Notes: generated by a model not told the origin, from the letters alone. Shown: positions 1 to 62,146, counted from the whole stretch's first letter. The stretch is DNA of 63,594 bases, filler included, from Conidiobolus incongruus B7586 (GCA_000697335.1; 14 parts of 14 records of this genome joined end to end with filler, not necessarily neighbours in it); one strand, 5' to 3'. A program made the numbers and translations.

Positions 1-233
1 TGAGTTTTTTGATTATTTAATTTAAATCTATAATTTATCTTTTGAAATTTAAATTTAATATATATTGAATATTATTTCAAAATATTTTATAATTAAATTT
101 TATTATTATAGAACATAGTTATTAGATTTTATAATTTAATTAATTAAATGTAAATAAGGTTTTAATTAATAATTATTTGATAAATTTTAATATTTTAATT
201 TAATTACATTATTATAATTTTTTATAATAAATT

Positions 234-629
234 TATAAGTGTAGTGGTAGTTAAACTAATATAATATAGAAGAAAACTTAATATAAAAGTAGTGTGGTAT
301 AGAATGTAGTAATATAATGTAGCTATAATGTGCAAGTGTAAATAAAGTTTAATTAAGCTTCAAACTAAGATGAGTTACTAATATATTAAGATTTATATTA
401 GGTAGTATTAATATCTTATAATATTAATAGAATATAGTTTCAATTTTAAAAATAATTTAAAAGTAAGAATAGTAAGAATTGAAAAGAAAAAAAAACTTAA
501 TTTATTAGATAATTTAATACTATTTATACAATTAATTTAACTATATAAGTATAAATTAATTATATAATTTATAGTTAATTGGATTATATAAAAGTATATA
601 TAAGAATTTAAAGAACTAGTTTTTTAATA
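234..629 (-). repeat. 3' LTR of Gypsy element
   Basis: Colinear with 5539-5937 and 57756-58154; adjoins the PPT. Confidence 0.93.
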
Positions 630-639
630 CTCCCTTAAT

Positions 640-3600
640 AAATTTTTTAGAAGAGACACACTTTTTAATTTTTTACAAATAGGTATAATAAGCTAAAGTA
701 TTCTTAATATTTTTTAGAGGTTCTTATATAGTTTCTTTAATAAAATAACCCATCTATTTTATATAAAAATAAAGTTTATTCCTAATAGATTTAAACCTAA
801 TTATATAATTAACATAGTATTCTTCTTCTTTATCTTAATTAATAATTAAATCTAGTTTTAAAATTTTTAATTAATTAAGAAAAGTATTAAAATCTTTAAA
901 ATATAGTTTAATTTTGGATATGTGAAAGGTAAAGTTAATCTTCAAAGTTAGAGGTAATTCTAAAGTAATATATTTAAAATTTGAATTAATAAATTAAATT
1001 TTATAGGGACTATAATATAATAATAAGTATTTGGGATTTAAGCTAGATTTAAGTAAGGTAAGTTTAAAGGTAAATTGTTCTAAATATACAAACATACTAG
1101 TTTTATATTTAAGAGGGTTTCTAAATAACTTTAAGTATTATTATTCTATAATCCTTTAATTTTCTTCTAAGTTAAATTTAATAAAAGAATTAATATATTT
1201 AATATTAAATTAAAATTCAACAATGTTTAAAAGTAAGTTGATTTAAAGTTTTAGAGTAATTATTAAGTTAGGATATTTATTATAATTAATAAAATAAAAG
1301 CTAAAACTTATTGATTTATTAATAAAAGTGTTGAATAAATATTAGAGTTAATAGATATAAGCATCCTAATTTAACTAATTAGTGTTAATATAAGCTTTAA
1401 TTATTTACTTTAAGGTTTTAATAGTTTTTTCAACAAGTTTATTAGTTTAGTGATAATTAGTAATAGATATAACTAGGTTAATTTTAAAAAAAAAGGATAG
1501 TAACTTCTAAAATTAAAAGTTGAATTATATATCTCTATTAAATATAATAGTTTGTAGAATTCTATAGTAGGTAAAAATATTAGAGAATAACAATTATACA
1601 ATATCTTTAGCTGTAGAAGTTTTAAAATAAAGAATAAAATAAACATATTTAGAAAATGAATCAATTATAATTAGTAAGTTATTATAATTATTTGTTGATT
1701 TAAAAATTTCTATAAAATTAAATTAGATTTGTTGTTAAATTTTATTAGAGACTTATAAGAGAATAAGTTTACTATATTTTAGTTGAGTATTATATTTAGT
1801 TTTTTAACATATATTATAGATATTGGTGTATTTCTAAACTAATTTAACTAGGGAAAGTTAATAATACTTTATTTTAATTCTCTCAGTGGTGTTTAACTAG
1901 TTTTAATATCCTCTAATAAGTAAGTTATAACATTCATTAAATATTATTTGTTAGATCTTAAGAATATTAGGAATATATAGATAATTATTATAATATAGTA
2001 AGTTATTGATAATTTTAAATCTTTTAACATATTTTAGTTAGTTTTCTAATAGTTTAAAAAGTTCTTCTTTAACTAAAATAAAGAAATTATTATTTAACAG
2101 TGTTTCTTAAAGTAATTTAATAAATTTTTTATTTCCTTTATTAATAATTATTAATTTAATATTTGCTAGATTTTTATAATTAAAACAAAAGGGTAAATAT
2201 ATAAGATTTTTTAATAAAGTATCTACAACATAGTTTTATTAACCTAAAAAATATTGAATAAAGAAAAAATAAGCTTAGATAATTTTAATCTATTTAATTT
2301 ATTTTCTTAATAAATACTTTTGAGTATTTAAGTAGATAAGTGATTTATAATTTATAAGTATTAAGAAAAAGTTGTAGGATAAAAAATGTAAGTGATTTTT
2401 AATTATTTCTACTAAAGTAAAAAGTTCTTGTTTATAAACTAGGTATTTCAATTCAACTGGTTTTATTTTTTTTAACCAGAATATTATTAATTTTAAAGTA
2501 ACATTTGTAAAGTTAAACTTAACTTATTCTCTTTTATTTATTATTTTATCCTATAGTTATAAAGTAAAATATAAATTAAATTTAAACTAAGTTAATTATC
2601 TACTAATTGTAAAAAAACTAAAGTTAATAAAAATAATAATAGGTAGTTTTAGATTAAAAATAGATAAAGCAAAAACATTAGTAATATAGAAAATTAAAAC
2701 ATTTATGTAGAAAGTATATAGTGGGGTTTATTCAAAAAGAGAGTTTTTCTTTAAGAGATTAGTAAAAAAAATAATAAGTTTAATAAAAGAATCAATGAAA
2801 TTTTTAAAGTGATTTAATAATTTAAGTATAAACATAAGTTGATTTTTGTTTATAAGTATAGTAAAAACTTTAACACCATTGAGTTTAGTTAAATCAATAT
2901 TAATTTTTTAAAAAGAAACAATATAACCAAAGAAAAAAATAAAAGAGGTACTAAAAATATATTTTAATAATTTTAAAGGTAATTTATATTCTTGAATAAT
3001 TTGTAAAACTTAATTAACATGTTAAATATATTCTTCTTTAGTTTTTAAATAGATTAGGATATTATTAAAGTAAGTGATAATAAAGTTATTAAAGATAAAG
3101 TTAAAAAGGGAATTAATAAATTAAATAAAAGTTATAAAAGTATTACACAATTTAAAGTTTATAATAGTAAATTTATAGTAACCTAAAAAAATATTAAAAG
3201 TAGTTAAAGGAATAAAGTTTTCTTTAACTTTAATGTTGTAATATCTATTTTTAACATCTAGTTTAGTAAATATAGTTGATTTAAGTAATTTATCCCTAAT
3301 ATTATATAGGTTTAGTAATAAAGTTTTATCCTTAATAGTTTTAGAGTTTAAAATATAATTATCAATATATAATCTTTAACCACCATTAGTTTTTTATATA
3401 AAGAAGATTAGAGATTTTTATAGTAAAGAAAAAAGTTTAATATACCTATTTTCAAGTAGTTTTTAGATTTCTTTTTTTAAAGTTTAATATTGTTTAAGAG
3501 ATAAATAGTAAATAAGCTTTAAGTATAGTTATATACTAAAGATTAGTTTAATTTTATGTTTAATATTATATTTAAGTGGTAATTTATTCACAAGTTTAAA

Positions 3601-4300
3601 AACATTAGTAAATTAACTTATTATATTGTATAAAAAGTGGTTATTAGATATAACTTTATTAAAATCAACAAATAAAGTGTTGATAGATAAATAATAAACA
3701 AATATATATCTTTATAAATTATTTAAGTTTTTGATTAGCTTTTTATATTAATTTTTACTTAGAATAATAAAATTATTTATTACAATTATAGAGTTAGTAT
3801 TAGGTAAAGTATTTAATAGTTTTATAGTAGGGTAATATAAATTTTTTAAGATTAATTCTACTAATTTTTTTTAGAATGTGAAAAAAATAGATTTATAGCT
3901 TTTTAAGGTAATATTTATAGATATAAAACTGTGATATTTAAACTAATTTTAACCTAGTATAAAATTTTAACTAATGTTGCTAGCTAAAAATTCAATATAT
4001 TAAAAATAGTTAAAGGGTAATGATAAGTATTTAAATATAATACTAAATACTTATTCTATTAAGTTATTAATATATTTAATTATTAAGTTGTTTTTTAAGT
4101 AGGTAAAGATAACTTTACAACAATAAAAAAAGAGATAATACAATTAAAACAACTAAAGTTAATTAAAATATTAACAAATATATCTATAAAAAAACTAGTT
4201 AACACAAACAATAAAGTAATAGTTAAAGGTAAAAAATTACAAGGTAAATTAGTTACTAGAATATTTTTAGTTTTTAATAGTTTAATCAGTTGGATTTCTC
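640..4300 (-). pseudogene. Gypsy pol pseudogene (RT and integrase/chromodomain motifs recognised; PR/RH inferred from position)
   Basis: Motifs become recognisable after reverting A>G/T>C. Many TAA/TAG stops at W/Q positions. ORFs 1473..1664 and 4095..4310 are fragments from within this element. Boundaries approximate. Confidence 0.8.
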
Positions 4301-5538
4301 TAGTATACATAGTTTAATTTATAGAATTATTAGTTTATTAGAACTTTTGTGGATTAGATTAGAATCTACTAACTAATTATAAAAAAAATAATTTTAAAGT
4401 TATATTAATATTATTCAAGTTTAATTTATGGTTAGTAGATTAAAATTGTTGAGAATTAAATTGGTGTTGTTTTTTGAAGGGATATTTGTTAGTTCTATAG
4501 TTAAGTCTTTCAACAATAATAATAACCTTTGTTTACTCTCAAGTAAATTTTAGTTTCTTTACTAAAAATTTTCTCATAAAGCTTTAAAACAGAAACATTT
4601 ATCATTTAAAACTTAAGTGGGTTAAAGTAAAATTTAAAAAATTAATTTTTAGGGTGGGAAGATTTAATTATAAAGTAAAAGATATTATCAATTATAATTG
4701 TTATATTACAAATGTTAGAAAAAAACATATTATTAAAGTGTTCTTTATTAACTAACTAAAGTTTCATTTAAAGGTTAAAGTATTATAATAGTTTGTGGAT
4801 TTATTCTTTTTCAGTGATATTTAATATATTTAAACATATCTTATTAAATTTCTCAATTAATTATCTTGTAGAAGTTTTTTATTTAAGTTAAGAAAGTTTT
4901 TCTCTTGTTAATTAAATTTAATCTTTTAAGTAATATCTCTCTTTAAAAGCTTTTTCTAATTATTTAAAAGTTTGTATCTTTATAATAAGTTATCCTCTTG
5001 AAGATTCTTTAGGATTAAACTTGTAATAAGTTAACTACCAAATATAAATAAATTTTTCCAAAAAAAAGTAGCTAATTTAAAGATATTTTTTAAATCTTTA
5101 TTAGAAATTAAATTAAAGTAATTCTTTATGTTTTTAAAGTAGTTTTCAAGTTTGTAAAGGTTTTTTAAACTAGCATAAGTAGTTAATTTGTTTTTAAAGA
5201 TACTAAAGAGGTAGTTTAATGTATTAATTATAATAAAGTAGCTAGTTTGTTAAATTTAAACTCTTTGAGACATGTTTTTTTCAATCAAAAGTTGTTTAAT
5301 ATAAGTTTCTTAAAGGGTAGTAAGTTTTTAAAAACTAAAGTTTTAAATTCATTTAGTAATTAAGCTATTATCATTATTAAAATAATATAAAGGTATTTTT
5401 TTTTGGTGGTATTATAGTATATAGTATTAAATTTAAATAAAATAAATTATAAATAAGATTTAAAATAGTAATAAATAAGTTAGATACAAGTAGTTATTAA
5501 TTTCTAGTAGGTTTTTAATAGTTTTGTTGTTGTTACTA

Positions 5539-5937
5539 TATAAGTATAGTAATAGTTAAACTAATATAATATAGAGGAAAACTTAATATAAAAGTAGTGT
5601 GGTATAAAACATAGTAATATAATATAGCTGTAGTGTGCAAGTATAAATAAAGTTTAATTAAGCTTTAAACTAGGATGAGTCACTGATATATTAAAATTTA
5701 TATTAGGTAGTGCCAATATCCTATAATATCAACAGAATATAGTTTTAATTTTAGAAATAGTGTAAAACTAAAAATAATAAGAATTAAGAAAAAAAAAGAA
5801 GAACCTAGTTTATTAAATAATTTAATACTATTTATACAATTAATTTAATTATATAAGTATAAATTAATTATATAATATATAGTTAATTAGATTATATGAA
5901 AGTATATATAAGAATTTAAAAAACTAGTCTCTTAACA
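5539..5937 (-). repeat. 5' LTR of Gypsy element
   Basis: Direct repeat of 234-629, ending ...cttaaca on the plus strand. The adjacent 5526-5538 reads TAGTAACAAC on minus, a plausibly mutated TGGTAGCAGC-type PBS (inference). Confidence 0.93.
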
Positions 5938-6186
5938 AAATTATTAATTGATGATTTATTAATTTTCAATTAATAATCAATTAAATTATAAATAAAATAT
6001 ATATTTTAAACTTTAAAAGACAATATAAATTTTTTCAATAAGCTTATATATTTAATATTATATTTATCAATATGTTTTTTAATTTTTGAAATATTTTTTT
6101 TATTAATATATTAAATTTAACAGATATTTATATTTAAAAAATATATTAAATTTTATTTTAAATTTTATAAAAAGATTAAATAAAAT

Positions 6187-6286
6187 NNNNNNNNNNNNNN
6201 NNNNNNNNNNNNNNNNNNNNNNNNNNNNNNTTAATTAATTAANNNNNNNNNNNNNNNNNNNNNNNNNNNNNNNNNNNNNNNNNNNN
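6187..6286. other. Assembly linker N44-TTAATTAATTAA-N44 (also at 18613, 26911, 28080, 31491, 33152, 41277, 45591, 54070, 55712, 57366, 60967, 62147)
   Basis: Identical 100-bp unit containing six-frame stop codons; artificial. Confidence 0.98.
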
Positions 6287-6471
6287 TAACATTAATAATT
6301 ATAATAATATTATAAGTTGATTTATTTTTTTAATAAAGTTAATTAATATATAAACTGATTTTTTTAAAAAAGGATTTAAATATATTAATATTAATCAAAA
6401 AAAATATAATATAAATATATAAAATATTATATAAAATAATAACAAAAAGAGAAAAAAGATATGGTTATATA

Positions 6472-8039
6472 CACTAACCTGCAAAAGTAATCATAAAATC
6501 AAAAATATATATATTTTAATTAATAACTAAAACAATTGTATATATTAGATTATTTGAAACTATAATATATAATTAAAGTATATTATTTAATAATAAATAA
6601 ATATATTTAGATATATTTAGTAAACTATTAGCAAAAATATTAACCCTTAATATTTAACTAAAGTGAGTCATAAATTTATAGGTTTTTGAGATAAAGGGAT
6701 ATATTTAACAATATATAACCATATTTTTTTTCTCTACTATTATTTTATATAATATTTTATAAATATACTAAACTTTTTTTATTAGTATTATTATACCTAA
6801 ATCCCTCTTTAAAAAAATTTACTTGTGTATTAATCAACTTTATAAAAAAAATAAATCATCTTGTGATATTATTAGAATTACTAGTGTTAGCTAGTCTACT
6901 ATAGTTAAAGTTGTTAAGAATAGCAATAAAGAAACATTTAAACTTAAACTTAAGTGTGTTAAAATTATAGATGAACATGATAAGAAGTATATTTGTAGGT
7001 TAGTTAGTATAAGTAAATGTGGTACTATTGTAGAAATATAGCAGGAACTATAAAACTATATAGGAATATTAATTAGCACTAATATTATTATATATACTTT
7101 ATATTAGTATGGATACTACTTACACTTTAAGAAAAAACACCCCCAATTAAAGAAATCCTATTATAAAACTAGGTAGGAGTTTAAATATTACTACTAATAT
7201 TAAACTAAAACTAATTAGAGTAAGGTTATTTAGTTTAATAAAACAAAAATATACCTTAGTGGATTTAATAAAAAAGCTAGATACTTCAAAAAAGATACAT
7301 AACTACTTTGTGACTATTATGTTAATTTTACCCAAAAGTATAATAGTGGGTTAATTATTATTTAGGGATGTATATTATCTTTAGGTGTAAAGTATCTTTA
7401 TAAAGTTAATAGGGGAATTAATGCTAAAATATACTAAAGTATTCTAAACAATGAATTGAAAAAAACCATTGAATAGTATAGGTTAAACAAATCTAATGTT
7501 ATTTTCTAGTAAGATAATACCTCTTGTTATACTATAACTTCTACTACCAAATAACTTAAAAATAATAAGATAACAGTTATAAAGTAACTTCTTCAATCTC
7601 CTAACTTTAATCTAATTAAACACCTTTAGGATTAGTTAAAAAAAGTTATTAAAGCTTTCCCCCCAATAAAAAATTTAGATCAATTTTAGAAATATATTTA
7701 AGAAGTATAGAATAAGATTAACTTTTTTTAGTATAAGAAGTTAGTTGATTCTATACCCTACAAACTTAAAGAAGTTAGAAAAGTCAAAGGTAGATACACT
7801 AGGTTTTAATTTTTTTTTATCATCAAAAACCTGTAAATTTATAACTCACCTTAGGTAAAATTTAAAGGTTTATATTTTAACCAATTAATAGCTAAATATC
7901 ACCATTTAATGATATATATAACTAATAAATATAATAGATTTTAATTATTTAATTTAGGTTTATTTTATTTAATATTAATTAAGTTATTAGTAAAAATATA
8001 GGTGTTTTTGATTTTATGACTCACTTTTGTAGGTTAGTG
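6472..8039 (+). mobile_element. Tc1-family DNA transposon (DD34E), full length, hypermutated
   Basis: TIRs cactaacctgcaaaagt...cataaaatcaaaaa / tttttgattttatgactcacttttgtaggttagtg. TA TSDs at 6470-6471 and 8040-8041. Inner repeats at ~6655-6695 and ~7821-7860. Confidence 0.95.
6793..7809 (+). pseudogene. Tc1 transposase pseudogene (339 codons, start and stop in the same frame, many premature stops)
   Basis: ATA(ATG)-PKSL...; KVI*FNKTK (=VIWSDETK), II*GC (=WGC), VIF**DNTSCYT (=FQQDNASCH), K*LLQSPNFNLIKHL* (=WPPQSPDLNPIEHLW). 34 residues lie between the D and the mutated E (AAA). Confidence 0.9.
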
Positions 8040-11000
8040 TATTATTAAATATATCCTTTTATCTCAAAAACCCACATATTTATTATTTATCTTAATTTAA
8101 TATTAAGAGTTAATATTTTTGCTAATAGTATATTAAAAATATCTAAATATATCTTTTTAATATCAAATAATATACTTTAATTATATTTTATAGTTTTAGG
8201 TAATTTAATAAATATATTGGTTTTAATTATTAATAAAAATATATATTTTAGATTTTTTAACTTTTTTTGTAAATTAGTATATATTATATTATTTATAAAT
8301 ATATAAAATTTTAATTTTTAAAATTGGGTTTATTTTATAAAGCATTGATTAAGTTATTAGTTAAAATATAAGTGTTTTTGATTTTATATCTTATTTTTAC
8401 AGGTTAGTGTATTATATTCTATAATAAAATTTATAAACAAAGGTTGTTGTTACTAAATACCTATAATATAATCTAATAAATTAATTTATTAAACTTGATT
8501 TTTAAAACCATTAGGCTGTATAATTTAATTTACTTATTAATGAGTCATTATAACAGAATATCCTATTTTCTCCTTTTTTGTTATTTTTTGGTTTAAATAG
8601 TTAGTTTAGTGAATGATATAGGGTTAGGAAAATTTCTGATAAAAGAAACAAATATCATTTGATTACAAACCAACAAAGCCACTTTTAATTGGTAGTAATA
8701 TTCACTTAGCTATTAAATCAAGACAGACAGGTATTTTTGAAATATAACAAATATCACTTGTCTTAATAAATAAATAAGAAACACTAATATTCAAATATAT
8801 GTTAATTAATAATATGAGAAAAATATACATTAGATTATTGATATTTTTATAAATATTTGATAAATTAGTCTGCTATATATATTCAATTATTAGAAAAATC
8901 TGATAGAATTTAAAATATTGATTTTTACTGAAAACTAAATATAAAATTAGTAATATTTGATTTTGTGTAATCTTTAAATGAAAGGTGGTTGATATGTAAC
9001 GATGAAAGTGATTAAAAGATAACTAATAAATATGATGGTAAATAGTTATTCTGAGATAGAATGAAATTGCTGTTTTTACTTGGAATATAAATCAATAAAA
9101 TTAATTTCTACCTAGTATTGGGTCTCTTGATAATTCCAACATATATTTAAACTATCAAATAAAATATACAATTTAGAAAACCAATTTCCAAATATGGCTA
9201 ATATGAATAAAAAAAATATGAAATTTACTGACATCACAATCAATAGTTCAGATTAAAAATTAGCAAAAGTTACTATATAGGTTTATGTAAAAGTAATATT
9301 TAATTAATTAGGAGAAAATGACAAAATTCCATTTATTTCACATTCTCGAAACCCACTAGAATTGGAAATTATGAAACCTTAACTGATCAGGAATAATAAA
9401 ATATTAAATTAAAAGTGTTTCAAACAAATATTTAAATCTAATTTTAATAAGAGTCATTAGCTCCTAAACAGGGTTTATTTCAAGTATCGATCCATTTCCC
9501 GATTTCGAATAATTTCTTTATGTGGTAATAATTTTCGAGATATTTTCCTAAAATATTAATCAATGCTTGTTATTAATTCAACTATTTAAATTTAATTGAT
9601 TGAATATCATTAACATTAATTGATATATAATATATTTGGCTGATATATTATTTAGCCAATAATCAATAATATTAAAAATTTTACTAAAGTTTTTAGTGTA
9701 ATTAAATAATATATTTAAATTTTTTTAGTCAAATCAATTGCTATAAGGTTATTAAATTCTTCAAAAATTGACGAATTAGACATATCAAAAATATATTTAA
9801 TAAAATGGTTGATACAAATTAATAGTTAAGGAATAACGTAGATAAGAAATAATATATATTGGTAATTGAAAGAAATAACTATTATTTAATTTATTGATAA
9901 TAATAGATTATTGTTTGACTATTTTATCAGTTTCATTCATAAAATTAAATATCAGAAATTTCCTCATCGTGATATAAACACAGTTATTTTCTCATTTATA
10001 TTCAGTTTTATTATTTAAAAATAATAGATTTGAAATTCAAATATTTACCAAATGCATTTATATTTCATCGAATAAAAGATAATAATATTATACTTTTCAG
10101 TCTAGTTCCATTGATTAATAATATATAATTTTATTTATGAATTCACCCTTACAATTACACAGTCATAGAATCAAAATTTGTTTTTGACAAAAATGATACA
10201 AGGTATCTAAAATTATAGTTATATTAAGGTATTCATTGATATTACTTTTCCATTTATTGTCGTATTTTTGAAATTAATTGTTTTAGAATATTGGCCAAAA
10301 ATCATATTATATTTAATTTAACAGTCTATATAATTAAACTTTATTTTAACACCAGTTTAAAGTTTATATCAAATTAGAATACACCAATTGACAACCATAA
10401 TTCATATCCAAAATTTTATATATAGTATTAATTTATTTAATTTAACTCTGTTAAAGAATGAATCATTTACAACTGTGAAAATTAATAAATCCACAATTAA
10501 GATAAATTTATCATCAACCTCATTTAATCAGCGCTGCTTTTTTCCTTTAATAGATTTATTAATTTACAATCTCTTACAATTAAAATATCACTGATTTTTA
10601 ATTTTAACCAGATTTTCATTATTATTTCACATTCTGTGATGATTTTAAAATAGACTACTATTAGCATTATTTGATCATCGCGTTTAAGTTCCTTTTAAAG
10701 ATATATGGATGTTAAAGTGATTTCCCAAGCATTAGAGTAGTTTCTGAATAATCTATATCCATGTTAAAGAAAACTTTTTACAAATCATAGGATTGAATAT
10801 GAAATCTATATTTAAAATATTGTTCTGTTATTTTTTTATTTGATTATTATTAATAATTTAAACCAAAATGATATTAAATTGATAATATTTTGATAGTTCG
10901 TCTTTAAAGTTAATTGAAGATTATTAAGGAATATTTGTATCACTGTTCCTCAACTTAACCAGATATTCATTTTATATTACGAACACTGTTAAATATAAAA

Positions 11001-14547: not shown

Positions 14548-17429
14548 AATTTTAATAAATTGTATTCTGTTTTGAATGTTATACCTAGTTATTTGTCCAA
14601 ATCTCTAAATTAATGTACATCTTATATAAACCATATATTTTAAATTGATCTAAATAAATTAGTGATTCTCTTGAAATATCATTTTTGCTAAACTTATAAT
14701 CAAGTTCATAAAAATTATATATCTTTTCCTTTTGTGTTTAATTTTTGCTTCAATATATAGATTAAGAGATTATATTTAATTGAAATATTTCAAATAAATT
14801 ATTAACGAATTTTTAATAGCCAAATATTTATTTTTTAGCTTAAATGAAATAGTGCTATAGTCAGTATATTTCAGATACACAGAAAGTTAAATACTTATTA
14901 ATTTTTATAGGGTTATAAAAATGTTTTATAAAATGTATGATATATAGTATCTTTTTATTCAAACGAGACCGTGTAATTTTTTAATATTTAATTTATATTT
15001 GCCAAATGAACTTGTGATAGACTATGCTATTGGAGCATATATTAAAGTATATGTACGTATAAAATAATATTTTATGAATTCTCAAATACCTATCACTAAA
15101 TATAATTTTGATAAATATACCCTCACTCACAGGCTCTATATTATATAAATATTTTATTGAATCCTACAGTTTGCATAGAATGGATACTATCACGTAATAT
15201 TAATATTAATATCACATAATTATTTTATATTTCAATCGGAATTTTAAAATTAATTATTAATATTGTTTCAATAGAATGTAATATAGATTATAGGTTTGAA
15301 AATAAGTTAGCATTACAATATTTAAAATATTTCTTTGAAATCAATATAAAGTAAATATAAGTTAATTTCTCTAGAAATTACTATTATCAAGGCTTTTCAA
15401 TTGATAATAATAAAATTTTGAATAATTGATTTTCAATGATTGTGTTCATTCATCATAGAACTTAATTGTGAATTTATTAATATATTTTTCATATATAATT
15501 ATATGGATATAATAAGTATATATTTAAGTATAATAGGTATTAAACTCTATTGTTTTTTTCATTAGCAATAAAAATTATATTAAAATAGGGATAACTAATT
15601 TTATTGTTGTTCTGCAACAGTGTTGATTTAGGATATAATTTTTCATAAATTGAATATTCGTACAGAGATATATTATGATTATATTGAGTGGTCAAGTGAT
15701 TATATAATAATTAGTTACCATATTTAAATAATCTATAAATAATAAAAGATTTACCGGTTTAGTTGAATTCTATTTCTAGTAATTATTCTTCCAGGAAAAC
15801 AGCGATATTTCAGCATATATCAATTTTCAATAATATATTACTAGAATTTTATTAAATTGCAATAAATCGGATTTTTACCAGATGGATTATTCATTAGATC
15901 TTTAATTATAACTTCATCCTGTATAAAATATATCCCAATTATAACTATATTAAAAATAGAGCAGCTATGTATAAATTTTTATAATGATTAAGCCACTAAA
16001 TCAATATAAATCACTTTGTAATATTTTTTATAAAATTAATAGAGCCATGTAATGGATTATTATTCATTGATAATATACTAGTAATTTACAATGTTATGAA
16101 TATTAACACGATTATAAATGTTTTTACCTATATAAATATACAAATTGATGAGTTATATATTCTTGCACTAATTAAAGAAGAAATTAGGAAATTTAAAAAT
16201 TATACTCGAATACGTAATTATTATGAAATTCCTACTTAGTTCCAATTTTTGAAAAATAATTGTGTCGAAAATTATTAAGAAATATGTAACGGTAGGATTT
16301 TACAAAAAAATTACTGGCTCAAAAGATTACATTGCAAGATGGTTCAATAGGTAAGCTTGTTATTTCTATATCCATAAATACTATCCAAATACGTTTATTT
16401 AAAATTATTGATATGTTTTGATATATCAACTAATTATAATATAAATTTGACTTAAAAATTCACTATATATTATATATTAGTATATATTTTTTAATTATGT
16501 CCTAAAACTCTTCTATTAAATCTTTTGAATAATATAATCTTTTCCCAAGATTAAATATAAATAGTTATTATACCGGTATACATTTAATTAAACAACCCAA
16601 TTTTCTTTTTGCTTCGATATTTGAATATTTTCACAACATATATACTATTTATGAATTCTATTAATTAATAATCGGAGGTTAACTAGTGATGGATTTTTAA
16701 AATTTACTATATTACCTTCAACCTTCAAATCGAAATCAAATATTGCTTACATACTTATCCATAATTATAGTTTAAGCCTATTTTTGAAAATATATCAATA
16801 TATTATCAAAAAAAAATAAGAAATAATTTTGATTTTATATCAAATTGTAAAAATTCATTGATTTTGAAATCATTTTAAAAATATTTGAGCATATCAAAAT
16901 TTTTATTTTTTAATTTGTTCGGAAATAATTAATGGGTCTTAAATTTTTTGCATAAAATTAATAAGTTAGAATATTAAGGGTATAACATTCTCAAAGCTGT
17001 ATAAAATTTTTTGATAATACTTTCGTATTAGTTCTTCATTTTAATATCAAATATTTATTGATCCAAGTAAAAATATTAATATCTTAGCTCACTGCTATTA
17101 ATTTATAATACATTGTATAATATATATCTATAAATTAAGAAAGAAAAAATGGTAGTTTTATAATTTAAGGTTATTAAAACATATTGGTAATTTTGAAAAA
17201 TTTACTATATACAAAATATATAGAATTATCAATTTATTCATGCTGTATATGTCCATTAATTAATAATAATTTGATAATTAAAATTTTTTGATTAATAATA
17301 TATTATGGGATTTAACTTTATTTCAAATAAATAATAATTATTATTATGGATTTTAATAAGAATTTTTTAAGAATATATAGATATTTTTATAAATAAATTA
17401 CAAAAATAAATATACCATATAAAATCAAT

Positions 17430-18400
17430 ACTCTGGATTATCATTAATTACTCTTTATTATACTTTTAATAAAGGTTTGATATTGAACAAATTGATCTTT
17501 TTATTTAAAATTTAAATTTAATATTTATAAATTAAATATGTTATGAAAGTTTTTTTTTATAAGCTGATGTTTTAATTGCTTAAGGTAATTATAATCATAT
17601 AGGTTATAGTCTAGTGAATATACTAGATATGATAGTTTTTTCTAACTATTCTTAATTATAAAATATTTGATAACTTTTATTTTTTATATTTTATAATTAT
17701 TATTCATTATAATATATATCCTAAAATTATATTAAAAACCTAAAATTTAATATAATTTTATTTAAAAAAAATAAAATTAATTATTAATTATATTCTTTTT
17801 AAAAGGATAAAAAGAAAATACTTTATTATAATTCATATTAATAGTTAATATTTACTTATAAATAAAATATTTATTTATTAAAATTTCTTAAAATGATTGT
17901 TTCAACTTAATAAAGTATTTTTATTTGCTCTTATAAAGAATTATATAAAAAAATTTTTAATTTATTTATTATAATCACTTATTATTAAATTTTTGATATT
18001 AAATAGTCTTAATAAGTTCTATTAAATTATAGGTATTTAAATTTCTATTTAGAATTTAACTTAATTTAAAATCATTAATATTATATTTTATTGATTAATC
18101 CATTTTCTAATATAAATATATATAATATATTTAAATTGTTAGTATTAATATATTTTGACAACATTTTAGTTAAAATAAAAGGATATTTTTTAATATATTT
18201 TTTTACTTTATTAATAATTCCATTATATTAGTCAAAATTATTATTTTGGATTTTAATTTGTTTTTTATTATTTTTTCTATTTTAAAATAATTTACCTAAT
18301 AATATATAGTTAAATTTAAAAAGGTTTTATTATTAAAAATGATTATAAAATTTTGATAAATTTCAAAATGATCTATTTGATTATTAAATTAATATAAACA
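17430..18400 (-). mobile_element. Heavily degenerate mariner (DD34D family) relic
   Basis: 17560-17700 aligns with 54755-54900 (aattataatcatataggttata...tatactagat). 18280-18360 aligns with 55495-55570. Ends approximate. Confidence 0.75.
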
Positions 18401-19669
18401 TTTATATTAATTATTATTAATTAATATAAATATAATTAAATTAAACCATAAAGTTTTAAAGATTAGGTTTTTGGTAAAAAAAAATATAATATATATTAGT
18501 TTTCAAAATTTCTTTATAAAATTAAATTTATTAATTATTTTATTAATAACTTCAATAATTTATAATTAAATTAACTTAAATTAATTATTTTGAATAAGCT
18601 ATTTTATATATTNNNNNNNNNNNNNNNNNNNNNNNNNNNNNNNNNNNNNNNNNNNNTTAATTAATTAANNNNNNNNNNNNNNNNNNNNNNNNNNNNNNNN
18701 NNNNNNNNNNNNTTTTTAAAATAAAGTTTATTTTTTTTATAAACTAATAATCAATATAAATTATAATAATAATAATAAATATTTTATTTAAAATAAGAAT
18801 TTTAAAAGAATAAAATATATATAATTAGGTAATATAAAATTAGTAATCAAATTATAATAGGTTTAAAGGAATTTTCTAATAAGAAATAATGTCTTTTAAT
18901 CAATTAATTATTAATATTTTAATATAGATAGTTAAATTAATTTGTTCTTAAGAAAAAAAATAAATATGAATTAAATTACTCAATAATTAATAATAAAAAT
19001 TAAATGGATTAGTAAGGAAAATATAATGCAACAATTATATAAAGTAAATTAAATACTAAAATATAAATGAATTAAAAATAATCTAATATTATAAATAATC
19101 AATAAATCTATTTAACTTTTTAAGATATTGAAATATCAGAAATATGTCAGTTATAAGTTTGAAATATATTTCCAAATTTTTATATTAAGGTTTGATAAAA
19201 ATATATTTATAATTATGAATATGAAAATATAATATTTTTTATAAATATAGATTCAATATTATTAGTTGGTATTTAATCAACAAAAAAATTAAAAATTCTC
19301 AAAATTTAAAAAAAATATGACTATATTAAATAAAATAAAATAAAATAATCAAAAATGCTGAGTTTACTTTTATCAGGAATATCTGATATTTTCAAATATT
19401 ACTCTAAAGAATATTTAAGGATAATTTCTGATTATCGTTTAATAGAAATAAAACTGTTATAATTAATTATTATTGTTACAGCTTTGTCAAATAAATGTAT
19501 GTTGGGCAAAGTATGTTGTAGTGCACAATATATATATCAAATTAATTGTGAAACAATAAACTTCTAAAGTTTAAAGTGATGCCTGATATTATGTTTGATG
19601 AATACTAAATATTAGTTATTGAAACAATATACATATGATATCTTAATATTTCAATTCAAGATTAAAATG

Positions 19670-20030
19670 ATGGAAAATAATCTTGTCAATCACTCAAGAA
19701 ATTGCAATTACCTCAATGAATCAAGAAGTCACATTGGAGAACGCCCATTTCCTGAACTCTAATACAAGATTCTCACGAACAAACTAATAAACACATTTGT
19801 TTTATCTTCATTCCAAAAGTGTTCAGTCTCTAAGTTTTTCTCGTAACCCTCACATGAGCGTTGAGTCGTGACGAGCGTGAGATATTTACTATACACGAAG
19901 TACCCAATTTACAGTAAGCCATTTTTACCTAATTGGGTGAATCCCATTAATTTCCCTTGACTCTGTAGTAAGCTATCGTTTATCACTGGCGATTCCTCGT
20001 TTAACCTCTAAAATTCTATTCCCTCACACA
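19670..20030 (+). repeat. Dispersed LTR-like repeat (CpG-retaining copy)
   Basis: About 350 bp homologous to the reverse complement of 40774-41135 (shared tcttgtcaat, cctgaact, actaataaacac, cccaattt..agtaagccattt). Contains AATAAA. May extend left to ~19475. Confidence 0.75.
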
Positions 20031-44100: not shown

Positions 44101-44191
44101 AATTAATTATATATTAATTATATACAAATTTTTATATTGAATTTGAGTAATTTATCTAATATTTTTAAATAGTATAAATTTTGTCTAGATA

Positions 44192-45008
44192 TTACTTTGT
44201 AATTTAAATAATGGGAATTTTTTGCAATTGAAAAAAAATAAACATTTTAATATATAAAGAGTAAAAATAAATATATAATACAAAATTAATAGTTTCTTTT
44301 ATTTCTAATAACTTTTTGCTTTACTTTTAGCAAAAATCTAACACTTAAAAAAACAATTCTTTTTATTAAAGACTAAAATTTGATATTTCACAAACCAATT
44401 AAATTTTCTTATAAAAATTTTCTTTTTTATAAGCTAGTTTTTTAATTGCTTAAAACAATTATAATCACATAGGTTATAATATAAGGAATATACTAGATAT
44501 AGTAGTTTTTTTAATTGTTTTTAATTAAAAAGTTTTTTACAACTTTAAATTTATGTATTTTATAATTATTATGCAAAATAATTGGTTTTCTGAAATTATT
44601 TTGAGAATACTAATTAGAAATAGTTTTATTTAAAAAAAATATAAAGTTTACTATTAATTGATTTTTTGAAAAACTAAATAAGAATAGTATATGCTATTAT
44701 AATATATTATAACAATTAAAATTTATTTATCAATAAAGTGTTTATTTAAAGGAATTTATAAAAAGGGTTGATTTAATTTAATCTAACACCTTAATTTATG
44801 TTTTAGTAAAAAATTATATAAAAGAATCTAAGATTCATTAATTATAATAATTTACTGTAAAAGCTTTAGTTTCTAGTTATATCTTAGTAAGTTTTATTTA
44901 ACAATAACTTTTTTAACTTTTTTTAAGCTTTAGTTAAATTATAAGATACCTATTTTATATTTTTATTAATTAATTTTAATTTAAACTTTAATATATATAA
45001 AATACTTA
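44192..45008 (-). mobile_element. Mariner (DD34D) 3' portion, interrupted by Tc1
   Basis: TA-ttactttgtaatttaaataatgggaatttttt TIR; colinear with 54519-55341. Confidence 0.9.
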
Positions 45009-45010
45009 TA

Positions 45011-45590
45011 CACTAACCCACAAAAGTGAGTCATAAAATCAAAAACACTTATATTTTTACTAATAACTTGATTAATATTTAATGAAATAAACCTAAATTA
45101 AATAATTAAAATCTATTATATTTATTAGTTATATATATCATTAAATGATGATATTTAGCTATTAATTGGTTAAAATATAAACCCTTAAATTTTACCTAAG
45201 ATGAGTTATAAATTTGCAGGTTTTTGGTGATAAAAAAAAATTAAAACCTAGTGTATCTACCTTTAGCTTTTCTAACTTCTTTAAGTTTGTGGGGTATAGA
45301 ATCAACTAACTTCTTACACTAGGAAGGGTTAATCTTGTTCTATACTTCTTGAACATATTCCCAAAGTTGATCTAAATTTTTTGCTAGGGGGAAAGCTTTA
45401 ATAGCTTTTTTTAACTGATCCTAAAGGTGTTTAATTAGATTAAAGTTAGGAGATTAAAGAGGCCACTTTATAACTGTTATCTTGTTATTTTTAAGCTATT
45501 TGGTAGTAGAAGCTGTAGTATAGCAAGAGGCATTATCTTGCTAGAAAATAACATCAGATTTATTTAACCCATATTATTCAATGGTTTTTT
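45011..45590 (-). mobile_element. Tc1 copy (least mutated), truncated by a gap
   Basis: TA-cactaacccacaaaagtgagtcataaaatcaaaaa. Retains NASC and KWP codons; no CpG seen. Confidence 0.92.
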
Positions 45591-48961: not shown

Positions 48962-49035
48962 TGCTCCCAACAGGGATCGAACCTGTGACCTTGGCGTTAT
49001 TAGCACCACGCTCTAACCAACTGAGCTATGGGAGC
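48962..49035 (-). tRNA. tRNA-Ile (AAT)
   Basis: GCTCCCATAGCTCAGTTGGTTAGAGCGTGGTGCTAATAACGCCAAGGTCACAGGTTCGATCCCTGTTGGGAGCA; cloverleaf with A and B boxes. Confidence 0.97.
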
Positions 49036-49045
49036 ATATTTTAGG

Positions 49046-53205: not shown

Positions 53206-54518
53206 TAAATGAGCATATTTGCATTCAATCAATTCACTATATTTTTTTTAATGATTTTTAAAAATTATTAATATAATCTTACTCACTTATATTAATAGTA
53301 AAATAAAAATTAAAGACAAAATTCTGAACCAATAATATCATGGTATTAAAATTCATATGGAATAATATTTTGAAAATTGATTACTTGAGAACTAAATATA
53401 AATCAGTATATAGATAACAAAATTTCCTAATACAGTTGCAGAATTCAAATACTTTTACCCGTGAAGCCTCAAATTATCTGCATGAAACTGAATAAATTGT
53501 GTACATTGATGAAAGTTAATAAAACAGTATGTTAATTTTGTGACCCCATTTAAATTAAACTCCGTTTCAATATTGAAATGATGGAATGTTAAAAATTTGC
53601 CAAAGTATCCTCCTAATTCAAGCTCAACTGGTTATTCTAAATTGCATGGTCCCATTCATCACTACCACTAATCTAAATTCAATGATAAATCTAAATCGTT
53701 CGCGAAACTTTAAGGCTTATTGATTCTAAATTTTAATCTGATTACTTCTCTTTAAAATAAATTTAACCGTTACTATATCAATATTATTTATGCATTTGAT
53801 CCAATTTATCACAGAATTGATTTTCTCATTAAGTGGCTAATAATTTTCAAAAGTTTAATATAACCAATACATTATTAAAAAGTGTCATATTAAATATATA
53901 ATTTTAAAGATAAATTAAAATAGGATACCAATTATATAATTTAATAATAAAATATTAAATTTAAAATTAAAAAAAAATATATTTTTTTAATTTATAAATA
54001 TGAATTAATATAAATTTAATAACTATTAAAAAAATATTTTATAGAATACAATTTAAATTATATAATTTTNNNNNNNNNNNNNNNNNNNNNNNNNNNNNNN
54101 NNNNNNNNNNNNNTTAATTAATTAANNNNNNNNNNNNNNNNNNNNNNNNNNNNNNNNNNNNNNNNNNNNAATATTTAATATTTATTAACTAATTAAATAT
54201 CTTTTATTTAAATTTAATAATAAAAAAATTTTAATTTAATAAAATAATTTATTTTATTTTTATATCTAATATTATATATTAACCTATAAAAGTAAGTTAT
54301 AAAATCAAAAATACTTATACTTTTACTAATAACTTAATTAATATTTAATAAAATAAACCTAAATTAAATAATTAAAATCTATTATATTTATTAATCATAT
54401 ATATCAATAAATTATGATATTTAGTTATTAATTGGTTAAAAAATAAACCTTTAAATTTTACCTAAAGTAAGTTATAAATTTATAGGTTTTTAGTGATATA
54501 AAAAATTAAAACTTAGTA

Positions 54519-55946
54519 TTACTTTGTAATTTAAATAATGGGAATTTTTTGAAATTGAAAAAAAATAAACATTTTAATATATACAAAATAATAAATAAAT
54601 ATATAATATAAAATTAATAATTTCTTTTATTTCTAATAACTTTTTGCTATACTTTTAGCAAAGATCTAACACCTAAAAATCAGTTTTTTTTATTAAAGAC
54701 TGAAATTTGATATTTCACAAACCAATTAAATTTTCCTGTAGAAATTTTCTTTCCTGCAAGCTGGTTTTTTAATTGCCTAAAACAATTATAATCATATAGG
54801 TTATAATCTAAGGAATATACTGGATGTGGTAGTTCTTTCTAGTTATTTTTAATTAGAAAGTTTTTTACAACTTTAGATTTATGTATTTTGTAATTATCAT
54901 GCAAAATAATAGGTCTTCTCAAATTATATTGAAAATACCAATTAGAAATAGTTTTATTTAAAAAAGAAATATAAAGTTTACTATTAATAAATTTTCCTTT
55001 AGGAACTAAATAAGAATAGCATATGCTATTATAATCTATTGCTACAATTAACATTCACTTATCAATAAAGTGCTTATTTAAAGGAATTTGTAGAGGGGGT
55101 TGATTTGGTTTAATCCAACACTTTGATTTATGTTTTAGCAAAGGATTATACAAAAGAATCCAAGATTCATCAATTGTAATAATTTGCTGTAAAAGCCTTG
55201 GTCTCTGGTTATACCTTAGTAAGTTTTGTTTAGTAATAGCTACTCTAGCTTTTTTTTAAGCTTTAGTTAAATTATAAGGTACCCATTTTACATTTTTATT
55301 AATTAATTTTAATTTAAACTTTAATATATATAAAATACTTGTGTGACTAATATTAAAATGTTTTGATAATTCTCTAACTGAAATAAAAGGGTGCTTTTCA
55401 ATATAATTTTTTACTTTATTAATAATTAGAAGAGTGACAGTTGAAATTAGTTTTCCAGATTTTAGCAAGTTTTAGGTAGTTTCTCTCCTAGCTTTAAAGT
55501 AATTTACCCAGCAATAAATTGTTGATTTAGATAATACTTCATTACCAAAAGCTGTTTGTAAATTTTGAATGATTTTAGAGGGTTTGTGGTTAAGTTTTAC
55601 TGATACTAAAATAAAAGACTTTTGATGGTCACTATTTGGTTTAAGTATAATTAAATTAAACAACTAATTTTAAAAAATTCATTTTTTAATCAAAAAAATT
55701 ATTATATATATNNNNNNNNNNNNNNNNNNNNNNNNNNNNNNNNNNNNNNNNNNNNTTAATTAATTAANNNNNNNNNNNNNNNNNNNNNNNNNNNNNNNNN
55801 NNNNNNNNNNNTATATATATATATATATATAATTCAAAACTATTTATTTTCCTATTTGTTTTGTATATATTTGTTTATTTGAAACTAATAATATGTTTGA
55901 AAAATTAGAAATTAAAAAATTTCCCATTTCTTTAATTCTATGGTAA
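54519..55946 (-). mobile_element. Mariner (DD34D) element, full length, TA TSD
   Basis: Imperfect TIRs ttactttgtaatttaaataatgggaatttttt / aaaaaatttcccatttctttaattctatggtaa. TA at 54517-54518 and 55947-55948. The assembly gap falls in its (TA)n tract. Confidence 0.93.
54614..55648 (-). pseudogene. Mariner transposase pseudogene (345 codons, single frame)
   Basis: ORFs 55472..55663, 55256..55468 and 54839..55054 share one frame. Motifs KWVPYNL, IITIDESW, ILHDN, HPVYSLDYNLYD, with 34 residues between D2 and D3. Start ATG>ATA (ATG intact at 61972). Confidence 0.92.
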
Positions 55947-57755
55947 TATATTTATATTTAACTTTTCTAACTTTTATAAGTTTATAAGATATAAAGTTAA
56001 TTAACTTTTTTATATTAAAAAAGGTTAATCTTGTTTTATACTTCTTAAATATATTTTTAAAGTTAATCTAAATTTTTTATTAAGGGGAAAACTATAATAC
56101 CTTTTTTTAACTGATTCTAAAGGTATTTAATTAGGTTAAAGTTAAGAAATTAAAGAAACCACTTTATAACTATTATTTTATTATTTTTAAGCTATTTGGT
56201 AGTGAAAGCTATAATATAATAAAAAGCATTATCTTGCTAAAAAATAATATCAGATTTATTTAACCTATATTATTTAATGAATTTTTTTAATTCATTGTTT
56301 AGAATATTTTAGTACATTTTAATATTAATTCCCTTATTAATTTTACAAAAATACCTTATATCTAAAGATAATATATATCCTTAAATAATAATTAACCCAT
56401 TATTATATTTTTAGGTAAAATTATTATAATAGTTACAAAATAATTCTTTATCTTTTTTAAACTATTTAATCTTTTTATTAAATCCACTAAGATATATTTT
56501 TGTTTTATTAAACTAAATAACCTTATTCTAATTAGTTTTAGTTTAATATTAATGGCAATATTTAAACTCTTACCTAGTTTTATAATAGAATTTCTTTAAT
56601 TAAAGGTGTTTTTTCTTAAAGTGAAAGTAGTATCTATACTAATGTAAAACATATATAATAGTATTAGTATAAATTAATATTATTGTATAGTCTTATAATT
56701 CCTGTTATATTTTTATAATAATAGCATATTTGTTTATACTAACTAATTTATAAATATACTTCTCATTATATTTATTTATAATTTTAACATACTTAAGTTT
56801 AAATATATTTTTATTGTTATTCTTAATAACTTTAACTCTAGTAAATTAGCTAACATTTGCAATTCTAATTATATCAAAAGTTGATTTATTTTTTTTATAA
56901 AGTTGATTAATATATAAGTAGATTTTTTTAGAAAGGGATTTAAGTATAATAATTCTAATAAAAAAAATTTAGTATATCTGTAAAATATTATATAAAATAA
57001 TAGCAAAAAGAGAAAAAAGATATGGTTATATATTGTTAAATATATCCCTTTATCTCAAAAACCCACAAATTTATGACTTACCTTAGTTAAATATTAAGGG
57101 TTAATATTTTTGTTAATAGTTTACTAAATATATCTAAATATATCTAAATATATTTATTTATTATTAAATAATATACTTTAATTATATATCATAGTTTCAA
57201 GTAATCTAATATATACAATTGTTTTAGTTATTAATTAAAATATATATATTTTTGATTTTATGACTTATTTTTGTAAGTCAGTGTATTTAATATTTTTTTT
57301 TAATTTATTATTTAAAATATTTTAATATATCTCAATATTAATTCCTTTGTTAAATTTATAAAAATNNNNNNNNNNNNNNNNNNNNNNNNNNNNNNNNNNN
57401 NNNNNNNNNTTAATTAATTAANNNNNNNNNNNNNNNNNNNNNNNNNNNNNNNNNNNNNNNNNNNNTATATTAAGAAGATTAATTAAAAATCATTTTATTT
57501 AAAAAATAAAATAATAATTTTTTTTTCAATGATTTTCCTGTAAAGATTAAATAAAAATAATATATATTTTTCAATTTATTAAATCTATTTAAATTAATTT
57601 ATAGTTAAAATATTTATTAATAAAAAGTTTATAAAGAAAATTTTAATTTAAACCAATATTTTAATTTATATTTAAATAAAAAATTATATAAAAAATATAT
57701 TATCTATTAAAAATAATAATTAAATATAAATACCTTATTTTTTAAATATAATATA

Positions 57756-60700: not shown

Positions 60701-60762
60701 TAGCTTAGTAAAATATTAAAAATAGTTAAAGAAATAGAATTTTCTTTAACTTTAATATTATT
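57756..60762 (-). mobile_element. Second, 5'-truncated copy of the Gypsy element (3' LTR 57756-58154, PPT, integrase through part of RT)
   Basis: Colinear with 234-~3238; LTR ends ttttaaca followed by ctccct. Confidence 0.92.
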
Positions 60763-61066
60763 ATAATATATTTAAAAAAATGCTCTATATAAATAAATAG
60801 TTTTAAGAATAAGTAAGTTAATTTATTTTTTAATTTCTTATTCTTTTTTTTAACTCCCTTATGATTTAAAATAAAATATAACATAAATATACTAAATTCT
60901 AATATATTGTAAATATAAGATATTTTAAAACTATGGTTATTACATTATATTTTTAATAATAAGAATNNNNNNNNNNNNNNNNNNNNNNNNNNNNNNNNNN
61001 NNNNNNNNNNTTAATTAATTAANNNNNNNNNNNNNNNNNNNNNNNNNNNNNNNNNNNNNNNNNNNN

Positions 61067-61782
61067 ATAAAAATAAATATATAATATAAACTTTATAGTT
61101 TCATTTATTATTAATAACTTTTTACTATATTTTTAACAAAGATCTAACACCTAAAAAATAATTTATTTATTAAAGACTAAAATTTTATATTTACAAACCA
61201 ATTAAATTTTCTTATAGAAATTTACTTTTCTATAAACTAGTTTTGTAATTACCTAAAGCAATTATAATCACATAGGTTATAATTTAAAAATTATACTAGA
61301 TATGGTAGTTTTTTCCAGTTATTTTTAATTAGAAAGTTTTTTACAACTTTAAATTTATGTATTTTGTAATTATTATGTAAAATAATAAGTTTTTTCAAAA
61401 TATATTGAGAACACCAATTAAAAATACTTTTATTTAAGAAAAACAATATAAAGTTTATTATTAAATGATTTTTCTTCAAGAACTATATAAGAAAAGTGTA
61501 TAATATTATAATCTATTACAAAAATTAACATTTATTTATTAATAAAATATTTATTTAAAGGGATTTATAAAGGTGGTTAATTTAGCTTAATTTAGCATCT
61601 TGATTTGTGTTTAAGTAAAGGATTTTATATAAAGATTTAAGATTCATAAATTATAATTATTTATTATAAAAGTTTAAGCTTTTAGTAATATTTAAGTAAG
61701 CTTTATATAGAAATAATTAATCTAGTTTTTTTTTAAATTTTAATTAAATTATAAGGTACCTATTTTATATTTTTATTTATTA
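61067..61782 (-). mobile_element. Mariner sister copy (3' portion), interrupted by another mariner
   Basis: Colinear with ~54585-55304. ORF 61291..61479 contains IILHNNYKIH..KNNWKKLP. Confidence 0.85.
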
Positions 61783-62146
61783 TTACCATAGAATTGAAGA
61801 AATGGGAAATTTTTTAGTTTCCAATTTTTCAAACATATTATTAGTTTCAAATAAGCAAATATATACAAAACAAATAGGAAAATAAATAGTTTTGAATTAT
61901 ATATATATATATATATAATAATTATTTTGATTAAAAAATGAATTTTTTAAAATTAGTTGTTTAATTTAATCATGCTTAAACCAAATAGTGACCATCAAAA
62001 GTCTTTTATTTTAGTATCAGTAAAACTTAACCACAAACCCTCTAAAATCATTCAAAATTTACAAACAGCTTTTGGTAATGAAGCATTATCTAAATCAACA
62101 ATTTATTGCTGGGTAAATTACTTTAAGGCTAGGAGAGAAACTACCC
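61783..62146 (+). mobile_element. Mariner 5' end (TIR, (TA)n, ATG at 61972), lightly mutated, truncated by a gap
   Basis: TA-ttaccatagaattgaagaaatgggaaatttttt; MLKPNSDHQKSFILVSVKL. Confidence 0.9.

What the first reader, a model, noticed from the sequence alone, without database searches (positions are those of the whole stretch)
234..8409. RIP-like repeat-directed C>T hypermutation in an apparently early-diverging fungus
Seen: the two LTRs of one insertion (TSD intact) differ at dozens of sites, nearly all G/A or C/T, with only a few transversions. The Tc1 (339 codons) and mariner (345 codons) transposases keep frame and length but carry ATG>ATA, TGG>TAG/TAA, CAA>TAA and GAT>AAT changes, and the RT YxDD reads YFNN. 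I saw no CpG across ~1-8400. All three unrelated TE families in the window are hit on both strands, while single-copy genes are untouched. Established: this pattern defines RIP, which is characterised in Pezizomycotina (RID methyltransferase-like protein, CpA bias) and reported with other contexts in some Basidiomycota. Inference: the host looks non-Dikarya, so this may be an independent or poorly described genome-defence mutator. I cannot check from here whether it has been reported for this lineage.
Basis: partly seen in the sequence, partly recalled or inferred. Interest (0 to 1): 0.9.

Follow-up and report, generated by a model that had tools for sequence, protein, structure and literature searches.

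The report
Transposon-confined C-to-T hypermutation in Conidiobolus
In a Conidiobolus-type fungus, far from the moulds known for repeat-induced point mutation, transposons have lost every CG pair and many other cytosines to one-way C-to-T change while neighbouring genes keep theirs, likely the scar of a methylation-linked genome defence.

Summary
The host is an Entomophthorales fungus close to Conidiobolus coronatus (MUB1 89.7% identical; tree 100/99). Across 21.4 kb of Ty3, Tc1 and mariner DNA there are 0 CpG (137.9 expected); genes keep theirs (o/e 0.86). LTRs with an intact TSD differ by 41 transitions and 3-4 transversions; one Tc1 pair by 34 and 0. In two public runs, 333 of 349 and 318 of 332 varying places on the Tc1 are transitions. 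An intact relative shows the direction is C>T/G>A (89 to 16), on both strands, ranked CpG > CpA > CpT > CpC. The pattern is RIP-like, but RIP's defining features (homology trigger, sexual timing, RID) were untestable, and no genome was available to look for methyltransferases. Best reading (0.55): a DIM-2/DNMT1-type, heterochromatin-directed mutator plus CpG decay. Print is divided: Stajich 2024 saw RIP indices in Entomophthorales; Badet and Croll 2025 scored all 8 Zoopagomycota 'no_rip'. This scan noted similar patterns in Dimargaris and Jimgerdemannia (unchecked). Corrections: the window is 14 joined contigs; rDNA and a low-copy repeat keep CpG.

The parts
234..5937 (-). Ty3/gypsy LTR retrotransposon copy A, dead; gag-pol frame with 125 stops in 1635 codons; RT motif YFNN
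   Evidence: Pfam RVT_1 E 2.3e-9, RT_RNaseH, Retrotrans_gag; 0 CpG vs 36 expected; stops
234..629 (-). 3' LTR of copy A, TSD AAATT at 229-233
5539..5937 (-). 5' LTR of copy A, TSD AAATT at 5938-5942; 41 transitions, 3-4 transversions against the other LTR
6187..6286 (.). Artificial contig-joining spacer (13 in the window); not biological
6467..8054 (+). Tc1 transposon copy T1 with terminal inverted repeats; transposase frame about 6793-7809, 23 stops
   Evidence: 39% to intact transposase P0121, E 2.7e-67; 28,542 and 24,252 contig pieces laid
8032..8409 (-). Tc1 inverted-repeat fragment
29910..31490 (-). Tc1 copy T2
   Evidence: 134 ts / 7 tv against T1 ORF
31591..33115 (-). Tc1 copy T3 (more diverged subfamily)
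44993..45590 (-). Tc1 copy T5, partial, least mutated, still 0 CpG
   Evidence: 34 ts / 0 tv against T1
55944..57300 (-). Tc1 copy T4
54503..55711 (-). Mariner copy M1, lightly mutated, 0 CpG vs 13.9 expected
   Evidence: Pfam Transposase_1, HTH_48, DDE_3
44190..45007 (-). Mariner copy M2
   Evidence: 71 ts / 14 tv against M1
61067..61782 (-). Mariner copy M3
61909..62146 (+). Mariner copy M5, 232 of 237 identical to M1; 4 transitions, all with M1 carrying the A/T base
63220..63594 (+). Mariner copy M4 (other subfamily)
57755..60775 (-). Ty3 copy B, partial
   Evidence: 339 ts / 86 tv against copy A interior
17325..18570 (-). Old mariner relic, GC 10.7% (similar relics 28238-29024 and 62250-62860, GC about 10%)
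24505..25821 (+). MUB1/SamB MYND gene; host marker and unmutated control
27011..28079 (+). LSU rDNA piece; a repeat that keeps its CpG
19676..20020 (+). Low-copy LTR-like element E1 (11 CpG kept); partner E2 at 40780-41125 (2 CpG); internal control, 54 ts / 29 tv

Best explanation
Transposon copies in this Conidiobolus-type fungus carry one-way C-to-T changes on both strands, first at CpG and then at CpA, CpT and CpC, likely because a DIM-2/DNMT1-type methyltransferase marks them in heterochromatin and the marked cytosines are then likely converted to T far faster than background. Shown: confinement to TE families, direction, both strands, context order, very few transversions or indels alongside. 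Inferred: methylation as the mark, the enzyme class, an active deamination step, repeated small rounds rather than one burst. Untested: whether sequence homology or the sexual cycle triggers it. The outcome is dead transposases and AT-rich relics of about 10% GC.
For: Direction: at amino-acid-changing transition sites the G/C allele matches the intact relative 89 times, the A/T allele 16, neither 75. Differing codons explained by C>T/G>A alone: 104 of 209 (T1), 132 of 232, 124 of 221, 127 of 234, 24 of 64, against shuffle means 33, 41, 37, 42, 7; C>A/G>T is at or below its null. Context from relative-defined sites: CpG lost in 46 of 46 cells (TA 30, CA 11, TG 5), CpA 128/168, CpT 92/163, CpC 107/316; same non-CpG order in 5 of 6 alignments by a second method. 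The 30 TA cells need a second, non-CpG hit. Magnitude: T1 has 84 changes at 297 G/C sites but 1 private transversion in 993 columns. Genome-wide in run X1, 194 of 239 G/C sites vary by transition against 139 of 862 A/T sites, with 16 transversion places. No strand clustering in 15 copy tests (lowest p 0.064). CpG is low in three fixed 500-bp TE flanks (3 seen, 8.1 expected, p 0.04), as spreading would give; DIM-2-type mutation spreads and RID-type does not (bioRxiv 10.1101/115501, passages). RID/Masc1 was found only in Dikarya plus one probable bacterial transfer (PMC5751038, passages); DIM-2 is reported in early-diverging fungi (PMC7862722, PMC11258239, passages); Entomophthorales carry double-PF00145 proteins over 1200 aa (PMC11105155, passages).
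Against: No methyltransferase gene and no 5mC was seen: no genome was held. The Zymoseptoria Dim2 mutator hits CpA in over 98% of cases and spares CpG (PMC8016269, passages), and Neurospora DIM-2 mutation strongly prefers CpA; here CpG is most affected and CpT and CpC are heavily hit. The flank test has three flanks only. Lack of strand runs also fits many RIP rounds; one copy showed strand bias (T2, p 0.014, 1 of 15 tests). The genome-wide frequencies of the 39 listed transition sites gave the same order but no significant context effect (p 0.50; the rows are the tool's best-supported 40 of 354). Context rates are inflated because the relative is not the true ancestor (44% identical to the G/C-richest reading). 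5mC is described as scarce in Zoopagomycota (PMC11258239, passage).
Confidence: 0.55

Rival explanations
1. True RIP: a duplication is recognised by homology during the sexual cycle (zygospore formation) and mutated in bursts, by a divergent RID-like or unrelated enzyme.
For: Non-CpG order CpA > CpT > CpC; extreme ts/tv with frames kept; high-copy families are hit while a 75%-identical low-copy pair is much less so and rDNA is spared; composite RIP index +0.62 in TEs against -0.48 intergenic; RIP index of 24.2% in Zoophthora radicans (PMC11105155, passages).
Against: No strand-clustered runs; relics only 67-72% alike to window copies have fallen to 10% GC, below the roughly 80% identity limit cited in PMC8016269 (weak: closer copies may exist elsewhere); the family still reached very high copy number; RID not reported outside Dikarya (PMC5751038).
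Confidence: 0.2
2. Passive decay: TEs are densely methylated in all contexts and 5mC deaminates spontaneously over time, with no dedicated mutator step.
For: CpG is the first and complete target; both strands equal; no clustering; G/C loss is lowest in copies with no private transversions (T5, T1) and higher in the others; CpG-only decay is visible in E2 and a putative solo LTR.
Against: About 28% of G/C sites changed per 0.1% transversions in T1, mostly outside CpG; from my own knowledge this exceeds the 10-15-fold effect usual for methylated CpG. The transversion count is 1, so the ratio is imprecise.
Confidence: 0.15
3. Ordinary neutral decay under a genome-wide AT-biased mutation spectrum; G/C-rich newcomers simply drift to the roughly 18% GC of intergenic DNA.
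For: Intergenic GC 18.1% is close to TE GC 16.1%. No between-strain spectrum for single-copy DNA was obtained.
Against: CpG o/e 0 vs 0.74, CpA 0.65 vs 1.10, CpT 1.38 vs 0.85 in TE vs intergenic DNA; C>A/G>T not raised; ts/tv 34:0, 134:7 and 41:3 against 54:29 in the low-copy pair.
Confidence: 0.06
4. An APOBEC/AID-like deaminase acting on single-stranded transposition intermediates.
For: Non-CpG C>T at very high density.
Against: Both strands equally hit in the retroelement (213 of 350 G, 126 of 207 C columns vary); cut-and-paste elements hit too; the preference lies 3' of C with no 5' preference (0.43-0.47); the two LTRs of one insertion diverged after integration.
Confidence: 0.04

Closest known systems
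RID-dependent RIP of Neurospora crassa and other Pezizomycotina
   Same: Repeat-confined C:G>T:A on both strands, CpA the top non-CpG target, frames kept, rDNA spared, positive composite index.
   Different: Host is Zoopagomycota; CpG is completely lost; CpT and CpC substantial; homology trigger, premeiotic timing and RID not shown.
DIM-5/HP1/DIM-2 branch of RIP in N. crassa (bioRxiv 10.1101/115501, passages)
   Same: Heterochromatin-linked C>T with possible spread into flanks.
   Different: That branch has a very strong CpA preference and is premeiotic.
Dim2-dependent mitotic mutator of Zymoseptoria tritici (PMC8016269, passages)
   Same: Over 95% C>T, confined to methylated repeats, needs no sex.
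   Different: Over 98% at CpA and CpG spared there; CpG is first here.
CpG-biased RIP-like signature of Microbotryum, Melampsora, Puccinia and CpG-plus-CpA of Tuber (PMC4352252, passages)
   Same: CpG loss in TEs, linked to Dnmt1-class enzymes.
   Different: Basidiomycete signature is CpG only; here most changes are outside CpG and no 5' T preference was seen.
RIP indices in Entomophthorales (PMC11105155, passages)
   Same: Same order of fungi; positive composite index.
   Different: That work used dinucleotide indices only, on other genera; the passages give no value for Conidiobolus and no alignment-level direction or context.

Membership tests
RIP (RID-dependent) | C:G>T:A transitions dominate and are one-way | tested here: met
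RIP (RID-dependent) | Confined to repeated DNA | tested here: met
   CpG and dinucleotide contrast; by composition, not by measured rates in unique DNA
RIP (RID-dependent) | CpA is the preferred context | tested here: inconclusive
   CpA leads the non-CpG contexts but CpG is lost in 46 of 46 cells
RIP (RID-dependent) | Mutations clustered by strand within a round | tested here: not met
   0 of 15 runs tests below p 0.05; many rounds could erase the signal
RIP (RID-dependent) | RID/Masc1 gene present and needed | not testable with these tools
   no genome held
RIP (RID-dependent) | Triggered by sequence duplication as such | not testable with these tools
   needs a duplicated transgene
RIP (RID-dependent) | Premeiotic timing | not testable with these tools
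   needs crosses against vegetative lines
DIM-2-dependent repeat mutator | DIM-2-type gene and 5mC on TEs | not testable with these tools
   no genome or methylome; relatives carry PF00145 proteins (PMC11105155)
DIM-2-dependent repeat mutator | Spread into unique flanks | tested here: inconclusive
   3 CpG vs 8.1 expected in three flanks, p 0.04; six gap-adjacent flanks show no loss, 16 vs 14.6
DIM-2-dependent repeat mutator | Near-exclusive CpA target, CpG spared | tested here: not met
CpG-only methylation decay (Masc2/DNMT1 type) | Excess change limited to CpG, with TpG/CpA gain | tested here: not met
   CpA/TpG o/e 0.65; non-CpG sites 34-76% changed

The most novel reading that the evidence does not exclude
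Conidiobolus has a RIP-strength, homology-triggered mutator that works without RID and arose independently of, or before, ascomycete RIP, making repeat-directed mutagenesis an ancient trait of land fungi that index-based screens have missed.
Probability: 0.2. Interest if true: 0.85.

Novelty: new variant of a known kind. Interest (0 to 1): 0.6.

Why it matters
The most recent kingdom-wide screen concludes that RIP-like signatures are confined to ascomycetes and scores all 8 Zoopagomycota, C. coronatus included, as 'no_rip' (PMC12543289), while an Entomophthorales study suggests RIP from indices alone and asks for validation (PMC11105155). This window gives polarised, alignment-level evidence of RIP-strength mutation in that phylum with a broader context spectrum than the systems compared. 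It makes the open question, which enzyme mutates repeats outside Dikarya and whether sex is needed, testable in a culturable genus, and may help explain very AT-rich early-diverging genomes.

Tried and rejected
No whole genome was held, so no genome-wide TE alignment and no search for RID, DIM-2, DNMT1, DNMT5 or deaminases. Word-index protein searches with the Tc1 and mariner frames found nothing at E 0.001 (1117 and 1059 candidates); this says nothing about intact copies, since the index-free search found 1990 relatives. No RNA holder listed. Runs X5 and X7 laid 0 pieces on the Tc1; no proof of absence. No between-strain spectrum for single-copy DNA was obtained, so the neutral control is one low-copy pair inside the window. 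Depth was not used as a copy number. Strand-run tests were negative. Genome-wide context test on 39 rows was not significant (the one transversion row of the 40 was dropped). Flanks first chosen by CpG-free borders were discarded as circular and replaced by fixed ones. The mariner 5' alignment gave 54 ts / 52 tv and no context order, because it mixes subfamilies. Bewick 2019 was not held. Three supplementary tables of PMC12543289 were too large to read and may hold the methyltransferase content of C. coronatus; supplement searches of PMC11105155 and PMC5751038 gave no such counts. Sequencing or assembly artefact was rejected: genes are unaffected and each copy has its own states.

Full report
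Layout and host. The window is 14 contigs joined by a 100-base spacer, and no genome is held. The MUB1/SamB gene at 24505-25821 has only early-diverging fungi among the named top hits. In a tree of 24 rows it groups with Neoconidiobolus and Entomophthora at 100/99, inside a clade with Basidiobolus at 96/94 (no Dikarya rows were included, and 23 of 120 hits were used). Its nearest hit clusters with a Conidiobolus coronatus protein, which is 390 of 435 residues identical to the window's. The host is thus a Conidiobolus in the narrow sense; the species was not determined.

Observation. 234-5937 is a Ty3/gypsy element on the minus strand with LTRs at 234-629 and 5539-5937 and AAATT on both sides. 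The LTRs differ by 41 transitions and 3-4 transversions. 6467-8054 is a Tc1 element whose 339-codon frame aligns with one gap to an intact transposase and carries 23 stops. The window holds further Tc1, mariner and Ty3 copies. In 21,402 bp of TE DNA there is no CpG (137.9 expected); coding DNA has o/e 0.86 and intergenic DNA 0.74. CpA/TpG is also low in TEs (0.65 against 1.10), which CpG decay alone would not give.

Beyond the window. Contigs of two runs of one sample were laid on the Tc1 core: 28,542 and 24,252 pieces; 333 of 349 and 318 of 332 varying places are transitions (the tool warned that some differences were not counted, and these runs may be the window's own source). 194 of 239 G/C sites vary against 139 of 862 A/T sites.

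Direction. With intact transposase P0121 as outgroup, the G/C allele matches its residue at 89 sites, the A/T allele at 16, neither at 75. Stops fall from 23-26 in the full copies to 12 in the G/C-richest reading and rise to 27 in the A/T-richest. About half of all differing codons are explained by C>T/G>A alone, three times the shuffled null in all five copies, while C>A/G>T is not raised.

Context. At sites fixed by the relative (201 of 338 codons), all 46 CpG cells are lost, 30 by a double hit; CpA 76%, CpT 56%, CpC 34% (chi-square p 2e-18 on non-independent cells, 3e-6 on T1 alone). Trp codons give TAG 20 against TGA 2. A relative-free method gives lower rates in the same non-CpG order in 5 of 6 alignments and no 5' preference; its CpA class may include old CpG sites. 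The genome-wide frequency test on 39 sites was not significant.

Controls. The low-copy pair E1/E2 shows 54 transitions and 29 transversions, far below the TE pairs (Fisher p 1e-5, 7e-9, 5e-4); it is one pair and may include divergence before insertion. rDNA keeps its CpG. A direct rate in single-copy DNA remains open.

Mechanism. Strand symmetry and the hit on DNA transposons argue against a deaminase acting on intermediates. The dinucleotide contrast argues against general AT drift. About 28% of G/C sites changed per 0.1% transversions in T1 argues for an accelerated process rather than spontaneous decay, though on a single transversion. Between homology-triggered RIP and a heterochromatin-directed methyltransferase mutator the sequence gives only weak hints: no strand runs in 15 tests, slight CpG loss in three flanks, continued G/C loss in old relics, and the published distribution of RID and DIM-2. 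I commit to the DIM-2/DNMT1-type reading at 0.55; methylation, enzyme and timing are all inferred. Two earlier notes of this scan pointed me to the Zymoseptoria paper and moved me from 'RIP-like defence' to this reading.

What is in print. Seven searches found no paper describing this alignment-level pattern in Conidiobolus; the library lacks most subscription papers. PMC11105155 (passages, supplement search): RIP index 24.2% in Z. radicans and 2.4-5.7% in three others, with stated caveats. PMC12543289 (abstract, passages, one section, supplement rows): ascomycetes unique; 8 of 8 Zoopagomycota and the 22 of 30 Mucoromycota rows shown are 'no_rip'; the C. coronatus assembly there has 6.4% repeats. 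PMC8016269, bioRxiv 10.1101/115501, PMC4352252, PMC7862722, PMC11258239, PMC13297926, PMC5751038 and PMC8105982 were read as passages only. Bewick 2019 was not seen. The 10-15-fold figure for methylated CpG is recalled.

Verdict. A real, strong, repeat-restricted C-to-T hypermutation outside Dikarya. It works like RIP in outcome; membership in RIP is not shown, and its CpG-first, broad context matches none of the compared systems exactly. New variant of a known kind; interest 0.6.

Noticed in passing
window, 13 spacers e.g. 6187-6286: The window is a chain of 14 short contigs joined by an artificial spacer; neighbourhood across spacers means nothing.
   Followed up: yes
window 19676-20020 and 40780-41125: Low-copy LTR-like pair, about 75% alike; one keeps all 11 CpG, the other keeps 2 with CpA o/e near 1, suggesting a milder CpG-first tier that depends on copy or position.
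   Followed up: partly
window 22088-22397: Putative solo LTR (TG...CA, ATAT on both sides), 2 CpG vs 7.9 expected but CpA/TpG o/e 1.2.
   Followed up: partly
window 49046-49603: LTR-like stretch starting about 10 bp upstream of tRNA-Ile(AAT) (48961-49036, minus), as tRNA-targeting elements do; keeps 10 CpG of 19.8 expected, so such sites may be a refuge.
   Followed up: partly
window 37059-37430 minus: Short open ORF with DUF7769 helix-turn-helix domain (E 1.5e-17), CpG intact; possibly a transposase-derived host gene.
   Followed up: no
runs X1-X4 against X5-X7: Runs with the same species label split into a group that holds this DNA (81-115 million contig letters) and one that does not (25-33 million); the two of the latter tested laid nothing on the Tc1. 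This may be a TE-inflated sister lineage.
   Followed up: partly
window 46559-47338: RRM gene (Y14/RBM8A-like by my recall) with an Arg-rich tail and high CpG (o/e 1.6 in 47001-48000).
   Followed up: no
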